This document shows positions 33,701 through 63,516 of a DNA stretch of 64,000 nt, piece by piece. The stretch lies in NCBI RefSeq assembly GCF_026571515.1, contig NW_026866967.1, forward strand, positions 248,001 through 312,000. Reading direction: 5' to 3'. Numbering within the stretch: the stretch's first letter is position 1; each line of letters begins with the position of its first letter. Made by a program: the position numbers. Source of the DNA: Ruditapes philippinarum. Its lineage: Eukaryota.

Positions 33701-36700
33701 TGCTATACAACGTATTGATTTGTTGTCAATATGAATAACTCAATAAGAGATTATTATATCTACAAATTTTAATGTTTTCAGATAAATGTTCCGAATATTG
33801 TAGTGGTTTTGAGATAACAACAGCGTATTCAATTCGAAAACAAGCATAAATAGATAACATAATAACTAGTCTTCGTGATAAGTTAAAAGCAATAACTCTA
33901 TATAGATATCAATTTATGTTTTGAATAATAATATAGCGCAAGATGGTTTACAGTCTGTCTGTATCACGTGGGTGTAGTTATATAATTGATATGTGTAAGT
34001 TATGTGTGTTGTCATTTTCCAAATATGATACCATCTCATTTTTTCTTCTTTGATTCAACTGTCTCTTTTTGATACTGTTATTGCTTTCTCTTTTTCCTTC
34101 CCAAAACGCTTTAGCATTCTCTTGTTAGGAATATCTATAACATTAGCAGTAAAATTATAATTGTTGCCCGCACCATATGCTGTATCTGATTTTGAATCAC
34201 TATGAACTTAATGAAGTGACATGATATTGTATGAGTTGTCTTACAAGTATAATGTATATGGTGCCTTTCTCTAGGATATTATCGGCCAGTGCCTATGCAT
34301 TTAAATATTCTCGGGTAAACATGTTTGACTTTGGTCGTCATGGGCTCCTTGCCGCTGGCACTTGTTGCTGGATCGTGTGGGGGTTGCGTCCATTGAACGC
34401 TGCCTTTCCTTGTTGATATTGTTTATCATATTCTTTTACTACAAGGGAATGCATGTATATCAATGCATCATGTGCTTAAATAAGCTGTTGAAGTTTTCAA
34501 TATATGATAAAGAGATGATTTATAATGAAATATGTGACAACATTATATGTATATTTTGATTCTGATGTATAACAGTAAAAGAATAAAAGTTATCAGAAAT
34601 TACAAAATTACAGACAGACCTGCGTTGCCTATCAGATATGTTTTAGTCAATTTTGGATTCCTATATCTTTAGGTTTTATATCCTGACAAATATGCATTTG
34701 TAAAAAGGCATATGAGATAACGTAATGGCCATTTTTTTCCTGACCAGGCACAATAGAGCCGAGTATGTAATCTGCATATTATTATATTTGGTATTTGCTC
34801 TTTCCAAGAATATTTTATACGAATGCGCTCAGTTGCTTTTGAAATGTGGGACACGGCTTTCATTTACCTATCTTTCATTCTGACACACTAATTACACCAG
34901 CTGACCATTACTGTACTTAGGATTCTGCCATATAGCTTATAATCTGGAGTTTTAAACATTAAAATGGAAAACACCCTTGAGTATCACTAATCAACAAAGT
35001 AACAGACAAATTTGTAACCGTGGATCACTGAACCGTTATCTTGTTTCTTCAAGATCTATGAGAAATGAATGTTCTAAATCCCTTAAGGTACATTGATTGA
35101 TAACCTATCACTTCTGGAGGGTTTGGCTGCTTAAACTATCAAGTGTTCAATCATTCTAATTGCTAGTCTGTCCAGAACATTCGAATGTGTATTATTCATA
35201 TCATTATATGAATTTTCTTCTTCTCCGACGCTTGGAGTAATCCTGTTATTAAAATGAATTGAATGGATGTTTGTACGTTTTTGATTTCAACACAGCCATT
35301 CACAAATACATTCATTTATTCGTAGCTGTCAAATGATTCCGACATAATTGATTTTTTTCCGAATTCATCATCTCTTTTGTTTTGTTTTGTTTCTTTTTAC
35401 GTTTCGTTTCTACTAGGAACATTTAATTTGAGTGTGAAATGGTTTCACGTTTCTCAAATCTGTCGGCAGGATTTATAACCACAGAAGGAAAAGTCTCTTA
35501 ATATTTAAAGTTTATATTCCTTCCTCTGATCTTTCTTAATGCGATAAAGGGGAATCAAACAATAATTTTGAGACGACGAAAGTCAATTCAGTCATATAAA
35601 GGGTTGAAACAATGTGATTATTTCAAAGAACAAACATAGCCTCGTTACTTCATACATTTTGGCAATGTATTCAGTTGTTTGGTTGTAAACTATATATATA
35701 TAGTCTGACTGCAGAATCTGTAGGTGGCTAGGAGTAGCTGTTCATAAAAACGATAATTTGCCAGCCCTTATATACTTAAATAAATCTGTACAGAATACCA
35801 ACAAAATAGCAATGAAGGTAAACTTATGAGAGTGTTTCAATCTGTTGGAATTAGGCTAATGTGTTTTTTATAAAGGGTTCTTTGTATTTATTACTCCCGT
35901 TTACTTTTCCTAATAATTTGTGAAGTGAACAAGATAATGGTCTTTACAGTCATGCTCCATAACCAGCAAATGTGCTTTAGTACAAATAAATATGATGTAT
36001 TCAACAGATGGTTGATTATCATAAAGTCTAAGCTTTTTTTCATACCTTTAATTTTAATTTCTGCTATTTCATTACCTGTTCAAGTGTGTGTTAGATTTTC
36101 GTATCACTATATAATGCGAACAAATATACTAAAAGCCTAGATTTACCAACGTCGAATTTAAGAATTTAAGATATTCATTGCTATTCCGTCAGTTAATTTC
36201 TCTGAAGACGGTTAACCCAGAATCTTTGATTGAGCCAAATATATTTTTTACTTTTAATGAGACGAAACCGATATGATGGACTGAGTCCTTAGTAATGTTT
36301 TCAAGCATGATATAAAAATTTACAGGAAACCTATTGACCGTTTAATCGTACTTGCTAATCAATCCCATCCTTCATTTGAACTTGGCTGACTCCACATTAT
36401 CGTATGTTTTTCATCATGATACCTACTTGGTTTTTTAACATGTTTAGGACACTTAATGAGTTTGATTACTGGTTGTCACTAATACCCTGCAACAACACTA
36501 TTACTCGTCATTACTTTATAAATATTCTCAAGAGTAAGACTACATTATTTGCAATTGTACATTCCCTATGCGACAATTTCGTTATTTTAATTCTTTGTCA
36601 TTTGTTATACCTATAACCCATTTGCCAATAAAAAATGTCATTTTAAATCCGCCTGGAAGAATCATGTTTCCTTTTCTACGGAAGCTTATCAGGTCCTCCA

Positions 36701-60700: not shown

Positions 60701-63516
60701 TAATGGTTGGACCAAAAGTTATACCAACATTATCTAGGGTCCTCACCGAAAGGACTGACTATCTTGTTGGCTTATTAATGGTAACATAGTTAGTAAGTAA
60801 GGCAATATACGAGTATTTCAACAGTTCGTGTTGATTGGTAATAACAATTTATCGGAACAGCTTGCATTTCCTTTCAGCCTTGTAAGATGCGCCTTTTATG
60901 TCATAAATACGTAAATGTCGATGAGTAAGAAGCATTTTCTGCTTACACTTCAATTCAAAGGAATGCATTAGCTTATCTAATTTGCATTATTTCTGAAACA
61001 CGGCTTGCATGCATAATAATCTAGAGTACATAGACGGTGATTAAAAATTCAATAACAATTGTTTGACTTTCTACTTTGGGCTATGACAATATACAAATGT
61101 TTCACTAGCAGTAATAAAATTCGACGGGTCTTTTATTTAATTTCTTTCAAGTTTTATTTTACTATATTTGATACTCACTGTAAAAAAATAAAAACAGTTT
61201 TAACTTACCATGTCTGTGAAGAATCAATTTCAACACTGATTTGTATAAAATTGGGATTTAACAAGTTTCTCACGGTTCGTGTGGGAAATTTAGATAAATT
61301 GAATCGTTAAATGTGAAATTCAATTTTCTGTATTTTATCCTGTCGCCCTCTTCTTTTTTACTCTCTTGCAAAAATATGATCAATAAAAAAGTTATGTTAC
61401 ACGGTTATAAGGATTATTTATCAGGACCTATTCAAATATTTGCTGAAAAAGATACAATTTCGATTTGAAAGGGTGCTATCATGTATTGTATTTAAAATAA
61501 GACTGCAATTTCAAAGATATTGTTTAGCGTAACTTTAATTACACCTGTCTCGTTTATTTGTAAAGCATTGACTTTAGACAATGACTGGGATGTTTCTTAA
61601 ATGTCAGGTGTTTGTGTTCCGTCTGTAAGGAATAATTTTTAAAGCAATGATCATCATAGAAAATGCCGGATGCAACGAACGGTTTGCCTCGTCCCTAAGT
61701 CTTATACTATCCAAATGCGGCATTTATTTTAAATGGACTTTTTGCAATGGAGTTGCATAATATGTCATAATAGTTATATATCTGCCAAAAGAATTGAATT
61801 TAGAAATAGATCGAGTTTACCAAGAACCTTTTAGTTTAGTAAGAAATTGATTTAGTTTTGTACTCGCTTGTTACCAACGGTGGAGGTTTTTAATATAATT
61901 GCGATGGTTACAAATAACTAGCATTTACATTTACTTTGAATTTTACACAAAAATGGTAGTTATAAGATGGATTAAGCCTAGGAGATAGTAATGCCCCGAA
62001 TATATTCAGTTACAATTTTGAAATAGAGACACCCAGAAATAATTTATGCAGACCAAATAAAACAGAAAAATATACTGAAACTGAAGGCGGATAGCCCTTG
62101 ATGTCAATATAAAGCCAGGCCAGCTTTCATATATATATATATATATAAACGTGTAGCCTTTCCAGGCTATAAACCGTTGTAAGTCTTGTAATTTGATACT
62201 GAAATCAACTCAGAATTTTCTGTTTCAAATTCAAATCAGGGCAAATCCATTAACACAAATTAATCAGGTTTTAAGAATTAAACCTCGTGGAAGAGTGTTT
62301 CTAAAAGTATATATAAAATCAAAATTACATTCTTTAAAACATTGAAATTGACAAAAAATGTATAAACTATTAGATGAGGTAACGGATTGTCTGTCATGAG
62401 TTTGTTTTGATAGTTTGATGCATTTCTGTGATATACCATTATGATCGAACTTTGTTTTGCACGTACTGTTTTGAATCAACTATTTTAGATTTTTAACTTA
62501 CAGTAATGTTTATTAAACGTTGGTAAGGGCGAACTTTTCATTCTGAATTTTGGGAAACAAAGCTATGCTCTATCAGTTACAAAAAAGAGAAAAAATAAAT
62601 GTATTTTTGAAACCATTTAGTTGCTGTAAAATCTCTTTTCACGGGTTGTAGATGTCAATTAGTAAGCCCGTTCATCTTTTGTACAATCTATTCCCGGAAA
62701 CCGTCCAAATTAGAACGGCTTTTACACTAATGTATATCCCTCATTTCTTCCAACAAGATAAGTCTATGTTGCATTAATATGTTTTAACAAAAGCGATAGG
62801 ATTGTGGCAAAGCCTTATCATTTAGAAGACTAGGAGAACAAATGGTGAATCCACCATTTAATTGTTAGAGCGTACAACTCTTGATGATAGTTATTTGAAT
62901 TACGTCCAGTGAAAGCGGTATAAATCACTGCGCAAGAAATATTTACTAACAATAAAAACAACAATTACTCTGTAAAAAAGATGATGTTGGGGGAATTTAT
63001 TAAAGTGTTCCGCAGGTCTGGCTTGTGCACGAACTAGTGATATGATATTTTATACCCAGCCAAAATTTGTAAGTGACAAATTAACAACAACAGACAAAAA
63101 TGTCTGTACTTTTAACAGATTAAAAAACATCGTTTATCAACTTTACAAATAAAGTTTTAACATTACTTACAGGTAAAGATAAAACCATGTATTAATATGT
63201 TAACTGTTTAACTATTCTTGTAAATATGATCATTTGTTGTCCTTTATGCATAGACAGTATTTACATATATTTGTAAATAGATTTATGAGAATCAAATTCA
63301 CATTTTATAAACATTTTGTTTTCTTTAGGTTTCACTGATATTCTCTTTTTGTGAAATGTCTTTTTGATTTTTAACAAATTATGTGGTCCAAAATATTTCT
63401 ATTATTTTATTTTCATAATTGTGCAGGTATATCTTGTGCGCAACTTGTGCAGTTTTGGCTTGATTTTGAAATTCAATATAAAAAACATAAAGAAGCTATA
63501 CTGCCAGTGTACACAT

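What the first reader, a model, noticed from the sequence alone, without database searches (positions are those of the whole stretch)
36330..61730. Second, exon-less tandem array of about five diverged non-coding units downstream of the cassettes
Same-strand blocks recur in a consistent order W-X-Y/V-Z. Unit 1: W? 36333, Y 37860, Z 38805. Unit 2: V 41765, Z 42632. Unit 3: X 46626, Y 47690, Z 48692. Unit 4: W 50585, Y 51470, Z 53362. Unit 5: W 58028, X 58950, V 61215, weak Z 61690 (GTCCCTAAGTCTTAT). Spacing (4-8 kb) and count (five) mirror the five coding cassettes. I found no coding exon in the units, and no homology to the cassette flanks by eye. They lie in the presumed giant intron before the constant exons. 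Hypotheses (inference): a co-expanded enhancer array controlling cassette choice, like the downstream protocadherin HS enhancers; non-coding alternative first exons or antisense RNA units; or relic cassettes that lost their exons.
Basis: partly seen in the sequence, partly recalled or inferred. Interest (0 to 1): 0.7.

Follow-up and report, generated by a model that had tools for sequence, protein, structure and literature searches.

The report
Decayed non-coding tandem duplication in clam intron
Behind five alternative first exons of a clam neuroligin-like gene lies an old, badly eroded tandem duplication of non-coding intron DNA, about four repeats long, which is real but shows no sign of being matched to the exons or of coding for protein or structured RNA.

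Summary
The repeated blocks are real. The two it marked weak (W at 36333, Z at 61690) are no better than shuffled sequence. Extra blocks found here (Q, Z', A, R) fit the same scheme. All 18 placements follow one cyclic order, W-X-R-V-Y-Q-Z-Z'-A, in four passes from 37826 to 61392, and 0 of 3000 shuffles did as well. So it is a local, same-strand, head-to-tail duplication of about four periods (Z x4, Y x3, A x3, the rest x2), not five.

The blocks are non-coding:
- no codon periodicity, whereas the cassette exons show it strongly
- no Pfam family above its cut-off in 229 reading frames
- no Rfam or tRNA match, and no folding beyond shuffles

Nothing ties the array to the cassettes. There is no exon or promoter-block relic, no shared motif and no matching similarity pattern. 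The one apparent link (13224-13578 and 50976-51321) is a small transposon with inverted ends.

My best reading is a neutral, decaying tandem duplication in the intron of at least 35.5 kb, made by unequal recombination. A reiterated enhancer array remains possible (Z is kept in all four periods).

Genome-wide copy number, conservation in other species and chromatin or RNA data could not be checked. The window is from a bivalve, not human.

The parts
37826..61392 (+). Whole array: about four head-to-tail periods of one non-coding unit with cyclic block order W-X-R-V-Y-Q-Z-Z'-A. Period I runs 37826-41919, II about 42000-46878, III 47647-50856 and IV 51412-61392. Period IV is the only one that holds every block.
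   Evidence: Searches give the blocks. Searches give the order test: 4 passes, and 0 of 3000 shuffles did as well.
37826..38200 (+). Block Y, copy 1 (period I).
   Evidence: Y profile E 5e-88. Tile matches to 47651-47813 and 51497-51779.
47647..47925 (+). Block Y, copy 2 (period III).
   Evidence: Y profile E 1e-58. Blastn gives 78.9% identity over 95 bases to copy 1.
51412..51782 (+). Block Y, copy 3 (period IV).
   Evidence: Y profile E 2e-82. Tile match E 2e-6 to copy 1.
38439..38681 (+). Block Q, between Y and Z in period I. Its partner is 52448-52700 in period IV. A third copy lies outside the array at 33060-33234.
   Evidence: Local alignment score 34 against a shuffle maximum of 22. The pair 33060-33234 with 52537-52705 has E 3e-12.
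52448..52700 (+). Block Q, period IV.
38745..38998 (+). Block Z, copy 1 (period I). Z is the only block kept in all four periods.
   Evidence: Z profile E 8e-70. 81.3% identity over 193 bases to copy 4.
42612..42821 (+). Block Z, copy 2 (period II).
   Evidence: Z profile E 3e-52. Tile matches E 3e-15 to copy 1 and 1e-15 to copy 4.
48621..48872 (+). Block Z, copy 3 (period III), the most diverged copy.
   Evidence: Tile match E 3e-9 to copy 4. 50-58% identity to the other copies on shared columns.
53300..53558 (+). Block Z, copy 4 (period IV).
   Evidence: Z profile E 2e-70.
39133..39282 (+). Block Z', just after Z in period I. Its partner is 53641-53798 in period IV.
   Evidence: Tile match E 6e-6. 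Segment test z 8.5.
53641..53798 (+). Block Z', period IV.
43675..43771 (+). Block A (new here), downstream of Z in period II.
   Evidence: Found. A profile E 3e-23, with copies only in the array.
49206..49308 (+). Block A, period III.
54731..54859 (+). Block A, period IV.
50557..50856 (+). Block W, copy 1 (end of period III). Its left edge is sharp and its right edge fades.
58001..58297 (+). Block W, copy 2 (period IV).
46536..46878 (+). Block X, copy 1 (period II).
58851..59197 (+). Block X, copy 2 (period IV).
40950..41115 (+). Block R, 832 bases before V in period I. Its partner is inverted.
   Evidence: Match to 60421-60259 on the other strand, E 2e-14. No same-strand match.
60258..60421 (-). 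Block R, inverted copy, 973 bases before V in period IV.
41782..41919 (+). Block V, copy 1 (period I).
61231..61392 (+). Block V, copy 2 (period IV).
50976..51321 (+). Element L, a small transposon (MITE-like) with inverted ends of about 25 bases, inserted between W and Y. Its second copy, 13224-13578, lies between cassettes 2 and 3. L is not part of the unit.
   Evidence: Profile ends match each other in reverse. The alignment has sharp edges.
54134..54350 (+). Dispersed repeat T inserted in period IV. Other copies are 2298-2542 (+) and 32108-32348 (-).
43188..43388 (+). Repeat S in period II. Its other copy is 2099-2273, upstream of cassette 1.
5444..28413 (+). Context: five alternative first coding exons of a neuroligin-like carboxylesterase-fold gene, at 5444-5944, 11546-12049, 16954-17319, 24328-24813 and 27980-28413. 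The next, constant exon is not in the window.

Best explanation
This is a locus-specific, old and heavily eroded tandem duplication of non-coding intron DNA. One unit, with block order W-X-R-V-Y-Q-Z-Z'-A, was copied head to tail about four times between 37.8 and 61.4 kb of the window.

I infer that the copying happened by unequal recombination or replication slippage. That is the same kind of event that made the neighbouring array of five first exons, but here it acted separately.

Since then the copies have diverged. They lost different blocks by deletion and took up transposons (L, T, S). Only islands of 100-370 bases at 65-82% local identity can still be aligned.

On this reading the array needs no function. 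It makes no protein and no structured RNA, and it is not paired one-to-one with the cassettes.

Shown: the blocks, their strand, order and local restriction, their non-coding nature, and the lack of any link to the cassettes.
Inferred: the way the array arose, and its neutrality.
For: - Block families are significant and all on the + strand apart from R.
- One cyclic order explains all 18 placements in four passes, and 0 of 3000 shuffles do as well.
- Spacing is kept between periods, by start coordinates:
  - Y to Z: 919 and 974 bases in periods I and III
  - Z to Z': 388 and 341 bases
  - R to V: 832 and 973 bases
- Extra collinear similarity appears only on the + strand: 4 of 20 inter-block segment pairs exceed all 30 shuffles, against 0 of 20 on the - strand.
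- Family profiles for W, X, Y, Z, V and A find no copy in the other 40 kb of the window, even at E<=10.
- The erosion looks like ordinary decay. Between periods I and IV about 907 of 1457 bases from Y to Z' still align (my arithmetic). Other pairs align less.
- Period lengths range from 3.2 to 10 kb, and recognisable transposon insertions lie in the array.
- The blocks are non-coding:
  - Mismatches show no three-base rhythm in 9 block pairs (p 0.04-0.95), against p 1e-5 to 3e-9 in 4 cassette-exon pairs.
  - Of 229 reading frames of at least 45 residues from 28.5-64 kb, 225 match no Pfam family at E<=0.01. The other 4 have matches below the curated cut-offs.
- Background from passages of PMC8905726: the nearest named relative's genome is about 45% interspersed repeats, roughly a quarter unclassified, plus 10% satellites. 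Repeated non-coding DNA is the norm there.
Against: - Block Z survives in all four periods. Between periods I and IV it is much better kept than Y in the same pair: 165/221 = 74.7% against 149/260 = 57.3% on shared columns. That fits selective constraint on Z. It also fits gene conversion or a recombinant history.
- The blocks are about as similar to each other (50-75%) as the cassette coding exons are (55-71%). Those exons are under protein-level selection and have about half of their third codon positions changed (81 of about 157 in exons 1-2). If the two arrays are equally old, the blocks must be constrained. Neutrality requires the second array to be younger, which I cannot show.
- Short cores inside the blocks stand out from their surroundings: 69 bases at 82.6% between Z1 and Z2, and 95 bases at 78.9% between Y1 and Y3.
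- Genome-wide copy number was not measured, so 'locus-specific' rests on the window alone.
Confidence: 0.45

Rival explanations
1. A reiterated set of cis-regulatory modules. The conserved cores (Z above all, also Y, X, W) would be protein-binding DNA elements such as enhancers or insulators, multiplied by tandem duplication and kept by selection. From the intron they would act on the upstream first-exon promoters, adding strength or choice. They need not be matched one-to-one with the cassettes.
For: - Z is kept in 4 of 4 periods and has invariant runs in all copies, for example a 10-base run and an 8-base run in the alignment.
- Z is far better kept than Y between periods I and IV.
- Block identity equals that of the coding exons.
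- High-identity cores sit in otherwise unalignable DNA.
- The blocks are DNA-level elements: no coding signal and no RNA structure.
- The array lies in the long intron of a gene whose first exons each seem to have their own conserved upstream block.
Against: - No conserved word of the cassettes' upstream block recurs in the array blocks. 0 of 9 eight-base words do. One seven-base word does, at a background rate of 2.9 per kb.
- Most blocks are lost from most periods. W, X, V, R and Q are each present in only 2 of 4, which is not expected of needed elements.
- The count and the similarity pattern do not follow the cassettes.
- The Z-versus-Y contrast can also come from gene conversion or unequal crossing-over.
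- No chromatin, binding or cross-species data could be consulted.
Confidence: 0.25
2. Pieces of a dispersed, non-autonomous composite repeat: an unclassified transposon or a satellite-like element of several kb that is common elsewhere in the genome and happens to be clustered here.
For: - The region does hold true dispersed elements: L with inverted ends, T in both orientations, and S and Q with copies outside the array.
- R and a further pair (56055-56203 with 59684-59542) occur in opposite orientations.
- W has a sharp left edge.
- Relatives' genomes are about 45% repeats, many unclassified (passages of PMC8905726).
Against: - No inverted ends and no transposon-protein relics were found for W, X, Y, Z, V or A.
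- No tRNA-like head was found anywhere in the window.
- No copy of these six families lies in the other 40 kb of the window.
- Four Z copies within 15 kb, all on one strand, in a fixed order and with kept spacing, argue for local copying even if the unit began as a mobile element.
- A 40-kb control is too small to exclude a family of moderate copy number.
Confidence: 0.15
3. Relic cassettes. The array would be the decayed tail of the first-exon array, or a second copy of it, whose coding exons and promoters have been lost.
For: - It lies directly downstream of the cassettes, on the same strand and with a similar period. Exon starts are 3.7-7.4 kb apart and Z starts are 3.9-6.0 kb apart.
- Its overall decay is similar.
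- The fifth cassette already carries a frameshift, so cassette decay does occur here.
Against: - The exon profile and the upstream-block profile find nothing in 28.5-64 kb at E<=10, apart from two chance-level rows.
- tblastn with the clam protein at E<=10 finds nothing after 28413.
- No cassette-flank tile matches the array at E<=0.01 except the repeats L, S and T.
- The one apparent link, L, is a small transposon.
Confidence: 0.05
4. Non-coding RNA units. The blocks would be non-coding exons (alternative leaders, a long non-coding or antisense transcript) or hosts of small RNAs.
For: - W begins right after a pyrimidine run ending in AG and fades at a GTAAAA-like site in both copies (read).
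- Z holds a conserved pyrimidine run ending in CAG in 2 of 4 copies (Z1, Z2). It ends in CAA in Z4 and is absent from Z3.
- These are weak signals that arise often in AT-rich DNA.
Against: - No Rfam match at E<=1 over the whole window, and no tRNA.
- The consensus fold of Z is negligible on both strands, at -0.5 and -4.1 kcal/mol, with 0 and 2 compensated pairs.
- 36 single-block folds have z-scores between -2.0 and +2.2.
- Unstructured non-coding exons cannot be excluded without RNA data.
Confidence: 0.07

Closest known systems
Tandem or segmental duplications of non-coding DNA, and kb-scale 'macrosatellite' arrays such as DXZ4 and D4Z4 (recalled, not from a call)
   Same: Head-to-tail copies of a unit several kb long, on one strand, confined to one locus, presumably made by unequal recombination.
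   Different: As I recall, macrosatellites are kept nearly identical by concerted evolution and have many copies. Here there are about four copies, 50-75% identical in their best blocks and unalignable elsewhere. There is no sign of homogenisation.
Clustered protocadherin loci with downstream enhancers (HS5-1, HS7, HS16-20) and a conserved promoter element shared with the enhancers (recalled)
   Same: An array of variable first exons, each with its own conserved upstream block, spliced to constant exons. Non-coding conserved DNA lies downstream in the long intron.
   Different: As I recall, those enhancers are not paralogous tandem copies, and they share a binding motif with the promoters. Here the units are paralogous, and no conserved word is shared with the upstream blocks. 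No chromatin evidence exists for this locus.
UGT1A-type loci: tandem alternative first exons joined to common exons (recalled)
   Same: The gene architecture around the finding: five first-exon cassettes, with the common exon 2 further downstream.
   Different: I recall no second, exon-less array described for that type of locus. The resemblance concerns the context, not the array itself.
Dscam1 docking and selector RNA pairing system (recalled)
   Same: Reiterated intronic non-coding elements next to an array of alternative exons.
   Different: That system needs complementary (opposite-strand) matches between the selectors and a docking site. Here no opposite-strand match between the cassette region and the array reaches E<=0.01. 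Only two chance-level rows at E 0.08 appear. First-exon choice also does not need such pairing.

Membership tests
Local tandem (segmental) duplication array | Two or more copies of the same blocks on the same strand, head to tail. | tested here: met
   Y x3, Z x4, A x3 and W, X, V, Z' x2 are all on the + strand. R is the one inverted block.
Local tandem (segmental) duplication array | Blocks recur in one fixed order, with kept spacing. | tested here: met
   Four passes through one cyclic order, and 0 of 3000 shuffles do as well. Y to Z is 919 and 974 bases, Z to Z' 388 and 341, and R to V 832 and 973.
Local tandem (segmental) duplication array | Copies confined to the locus rather than spread over the genome. 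| tested here: inconclusive
   There is no copy in the other 40 kb of the window. No eukaryotic genome collection was on hand for a genome-wide count.
Dispersed transposable element | Structural hallmarks: inverted or long terminal repeats, target-site duplication, a tail, or a tRNA-like head. | tested here: not met
   For W, X, Y, Z, V and A no hallmark was found. Element L, by contrast, shows inverted ends of about 25 bases.
Dispersed transposable element | Relics of transposon proteins. | tested here: not met
   Among 229 frames of at least 45 residues from 28.5-64 kb, there is no transposase, reverse transcriptase or other family above its cut-off.
Dispersed transposable element | Many copies elsewhere, in both orientations. 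| not testable with these tools
   This needs the genome assembly of this species. The genome collection on hand holds bacteria and archaea only.
Protocadherin-type enhancer array matched to variable exons | A conserved motif shared between the variable-exon promoters and the distal elements. | tested here: not met
   0 of 9 eight-base words and 0 of 6 nine-base words kept in at least 3 of 4 upstream blocks recur in two copies of any array block.
Protocadherin-type enhancer array matched to variable exons | Co-expansion: the same count and a matching tree of units and cassettes. | tested here: not met
   About 4 periods against 5 cassettes. The nearest pairs are cassettes 1-2 and 3-5, against periods I-IV.
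Protocadherin-type enhancer array matched to variable exons | Open chromatin, enhancer marks and contacts with the promoters. | not testable with these tools
   No functional genomics data are available here.
Structured non-coding RNA cluster (miRNA, snoRNA and the like) | A match to a known family, or a stable conserved fold with compensated pairs. | tested here: not met
   Rfam gives 0 matches at E<=1. The Z consensus folds are -0.5 and -4.1 kcal/mol. The 36 fold z-scores lie between -2.0 and +2.2.
Relic first-exon cassettes | Remnants of the exon or of the conserved upstream block in the units. | tested here: not met
   The exon and upstream-block profiles have no credible hit in 28.5-64 kb. 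tblastn finds nothing after 28413 at E<=10.

The most novel reading that the evidence does not exclude
The cores of the array, Z above all, are reiterated intronic enhancer or insulator modules. They were multiplied by tandem duplication and retained by selection, and they govern which of the five neuroligin-like first exons a neuron uses. That would be an invertebrate, independently evolved counterpart of the protocadherin promoter-choice system, built on a synaptic adhesion gene.
Probability: 0.12. Interest if true: 0.7.

Novelty: new member of a known kind. Interest (0 to 1): 0.25.

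Why it matters
As it stands the finding is ordinary. Eroded tandem duplications of non-coding DNA are common in repeat-rich bivalve genomes.

Its value lies in the context. It sits in the long intron of a neuroligin-like gene that has five alternative first exons, each with a conserved upstream block. 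I did not find such an arrangement described for molluscs in two full-text searches (listings only).

If the conserved cores proved to be regulatory, the locus would offer a compact, independently evolved model of first-exon choice in a synaptic adhesion molecule.

The present work removes the numerical 'five mirrors five' argument. It also identifies the apparent cassette-to-array link as a transposon and gives exact block coordinates for a comparative or chromatin test.

Tried and rejected
- **Coding potential.** Pfam was run on 229 stop-to-stop frames of at least 45 residues from 28.5-64 kb. Only 4 rows appeared, all below the curated cut-offs and unrelated to one another. The three-base mismatch rhythm gave nothing for the blocks and a strong positive control in the cassette exons.
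- **Constant exons in the window.** tblastn with the 927-residue clam protein found only residues 1-169, five times.
W at 36333 and Z at 61690 were rejected.
- **A link between the array and the cassette flanks.** The match of 13224-13578 with 50976-51321 looked like one but is a small transposon with inverted ends. S and T are independent repeats, and no further collinear similarity surrounds them.
- **V as a diverged form of Y.** The only support is one profile hit at E 0.04, so I did not rely on it.
- **Known RNA families, tRNA-derived elements and RNA structure.** Nothing was found.
- **A motif shared with the cassettes' upstream block.** Nothing beyond background.
- **Long-range RNA pairing with the cassette region.** No opposite-strand match at E<=0.01.
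- **Age of the cassette array from relatives.** A search with cassette 3 found no protein. The members of the cluster of the one clam hit could not be listed, so it stays open whether the relative has matching alternative first exons.
- **Literature.** Two searches on mollusc neuroligin first-exon arrays gave nothing relevant (listings only).
- **Splicing.** Only single-exon translations were used.

Full report
**What the window is**

The window is 64,000 bases with about 31% G+C and no N. On the + strand it carries five paralogous open exons, at 5444-5944, 11546-12049, 16954-17319, 24328-24813 and 27980-28413. Each encodes a signal peptide and the first roughly 170 residues of a carboxylesterase-fold protein.

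The translation of the first exon finds one protein, a 927-residue 'neuroligin-4, Y-linked-like isoform X2' of the hard clam Mercenaria mercenaria, at 71% identity. tblastn with that protein finds only its residues 1-169 in the window, five times, and nothing after 28413 even at E<=10.

So the window comes from a bivalve related to, but not the same as, Mercenaria. It is not human sequence. Only single-exon translations were searched.

Largely yes. Three methods agree: a self-comparison by blastn (and more sensitive), nhmmer with 400-base tiles over the whole window, and profiles built from each block family.
- Y has three copies: 37826-38200, 47647-47925, 51412-51782.
- Z has four copies: 38745-38998, 42612-42821, 48621-48872, 53300-53558.
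- W has two: 50557-50856, 58001-58297.
- X has two: 46536-46878, 58851-59197.
- V has two: 41782-41919, 61231-61392.

All are on the + strand. Pairwise E-values run from 2e-6 to 4e-33, and local identities from 65% to 82%.

The two it flagged as doubtful fail. Profiles find nothing at 36333 (W) or 61690 (Z) even at E<=10 with filters off. The best local alignments there are equalled or beaten by 33 to 188 of 200 dinucleotide shuffles.

**More blocks, and the true period**

I tested 20 pairs of inter-block segments against shuffles and against the opposite strand. Four pairs exceeded every shuffle on the + strand and none did on the - strand. These, with the tile search, add four blocks:
- Q lies between Y and Z: 38439-38681 and 52448-52700.
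- Z' lies just after Z: 39133-39282 and 53641-53798.
- A lies downstream of Z: 43675-43771, 49206-49308 and 54731-54859.
- R lies about 0.8-1 kb before V in both places but is inverted: 40950-41115 against 60421-60258.

All 18 placements of seven families fit a single cyclic order, W-X-(R-V)-Y-Q-Z-A, in four passes. None of 3000 shuffles of the same labels needed so few (the best was five passes, in 45 shuffles).

Read in the phase Y...V, the array is four periods:

| Period | Coordinates | Blocks present |
|---|---|---|
| I | 37826-41919 | Y Q Z Z' R V |
| II | about 42000-46878 | Z A X |
| III | 47647-50856 | Y Z A W |
| IV | 51412-61392 | Y Q Z Z' A W X R V (complete) |

Spacing is kept where blocks co-occur. 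Y to Z is 919 and 974 bases in I and III, and 1888 in IV. Z to Z' is 388 and 341 bases. R to V is 832 and 973 bases.

This is a genuine head-to-tail duplication, but of about four periods. The 'five mirrors five' argument falls.

**What the blocks are not**

They are not coding. In nine block pairs the mismatches show no three-base rhythm (p 0.04-0.95), and gaps break any frame. Four cassette-exon pairs, as a positive control, give p 1e-5 to 3e-9. Of 229 stop-to-stop frames of at least 45 residues on both strands of 28.5-64 kb, none matches a Pfam family above its cut-off. The 4 weak rows are unrelated to one another.

They are not known or structured RNAs.
- Rfam gives no match at E<=1 over the window.
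- There is no tRNA-like sequence.
- The consensus fold of the four Z copies is negligible on either strand.
- 36 single-block folds have z-scores between -2.0 and +2.2.

They are not recognisable cassette relics.
- Profiles of the cassette exon and of the conserved upstream block find nothing credible in the array. That block lies 1.3-1.7 kb before cassettes 1, 2, 4 and 5.
- No cassette-flank tile matches the array at E<=0.01 except three repeats.
- The most striking of those, 13224-13578 with 50976-51321, has sharp edges and inverted ends of about 25 bases. It is a small transposon.
- T occurs three times in both orientations, and S twice.

**Is the array tied to the cassettes?**

I found nothing that ties them.
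- The counts differ.
- The nearest cassette pairs are 1-2 (71.0%) and 3-5 (62.4%) on 362 shared columns. In the array the nearest periods are I and IV (Z 74.7% on 221 shared columns), and III is the most distant.
- No word of 8 or 9 bases conserved in at least three of the four upstream blocks recurs in two copies of any array block.
- There is no opposite-strand similarity that could support RNA pairing between the two regions.

**Most likely explanation**

I read the array as an old local tandem duplication in the intron, made by unequal recombination or slippage and now decaying.

The pattern looks like ordinary erosion. Periods I and IV still align over about 62% of the stretch from Y to Z' (my arithmetic). 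Other pairs align over much less. Period lengths vary from 3.2 to 10 kb, different blocks are missing from different periods, and transposons have been inserted. In the nearest named relative about 45% of the genome is interspersed repeats and 10% is satellites (passages of PMC8905726), so such structures are expected.

**What speaks for more than neutral decay**

- Z is retained in every period and has invariant runs in all four copies.
- Between periods I and IV, Z is much better kept than Y: 74.7% against 57.3%.
- The blocks are as similar to each other as the coding exons of the cassettes are, although about half of those exons' third positions have changed.

If both arrays are of one age, the blocks must be constrained. 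If the second array is younger, or if gene conversion has acted on Z, they need not be. I cannot decide this without a second species.

I therefore rate the readings as follows:

| Reading | Confidence |
|---|---|
| Neutral local duplication | 0.45 |
| Reiterated regulatory modules | 0.25 |
| Dispersed composite repeat that happens to cluster here | 0.15 |
| Unstructured non-coding exons | 0.07 |
| Relic cassettes | 0.05 |

**What stayed unchecked**

- Conservation in related clams, chromatin state and transcription are likewise untested.
- Whether the Mercenaria gene has matching alternative first exons is open. The members of its protein cluster could not be listed, and a search with cassette 3 found nothing.
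- Two full-text searches found no description of first-exon arrays in mollusc neuroligins (listings only). That is weak evidence of absence.
- All comparisons with protocadherin, UGT1A, Dscam1 and macrosatellite loci rest on my recall of those systems, not on a call.

**Verdict**

Its period count is corrected to about four, and it is shown to be non-coding and unlinked to the cassettes by every test available. Most likely it is an ordinary decayed tandem duplication. A modest chance remains that its best-kept cores are regulatory.

Noticed in passing
window 5444-28413 (+): Five tandem alternative first coding exons of a neuroligin-like (carboxylesterase-fold) gene. Each has a signal peptide, and they are 40-58% identical as protein. 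The constant exon 2 lies beyond the window. The best match is a Mercenaria mercenaria protein annotated as 'isoform X2'. Two literature searches found no description of such an array in molluscs.
   Followed up: partly
window 27980-28413 (+): The fifth cassette is read in two frames that overlap at about 28198-28201 (residues 14-88, then 93-168 of the clam protein). It therefore carries a frameshift. It is either a decaying pseudo-exon or an assembly error. No long homopolymer lies at the spot.
   Followed up: partly
window 3624-3892, 10101-10316, 22689-22967, 26219-26486 (+): A conserved non-coding block lies 1.3-1.7 kb upstream of cassettes 1, 2, 4 and 5. Its core is 59-77% identical on 98 shared columns and contains long invariant runs. 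It is a candidate promoter or leader element. None was found upstream of cassette 3.
   Followed up: partly
window 13224-13578 and 50976-51321 (+): A MITE-like element of about 350 bases with inverted ends of about 25 bases and sharp insertion edges. One copy lies between cassettes 2 and 3 and one inside the array.
   Followed up: yes
window 2298-2542 (+), 32108-32348 (-), 54134-54350 (+): A dispersed repeat T with three copies in both orientations. A second repeat S (2099-2273, 43188-43388) abuts T only at the first site.
   Followed up: partly
window 40950-41115 and 60258-60421: Block R keeps its place 0.8-1 kb before V in both periods, but the two copies are in opposite orientation. No same-strand match exists. 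This could be a small inversion or two independent insertions. It is unexplained.
   Followed up: partly
window 44417-44583; also 6849-7089, 9827-9923, 57157-57264, 59870-59912: Several imperfect palindromes or foldback repeats. The one at 44417-44583 has 70-base arms, 70% complementary. The one at 59870-59912 has 19-base arms, 95% complementary. Their nature was not pursued.
   Followed up: no
window 41800-41850 and 61250-61300 (+): Both copies of block V keep a short inverted repeat, with arms TTTCCCA (TTTCTCA in the second copy) and TGGGAAA, 9-10 bases apart (read from the alignment). It could be a dimeric protein-binding site. This was not tested.
   Followed up: no
window 4216-4427 with 23241-23438; 10810-11157 with 26877-27229; 14737-15031 with 25613-25909; 16237-16353 with 27128-27246: The cassette array has its own collinear islands of non-coding similarity between cassettes. 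Their degree of erosion is comparable to that of the second array.
   Followed up: no
window 50892-50978 (+): A 42-base unit repeated 2.1 times, directly between block W and the inserted element L.
   Followed up: no
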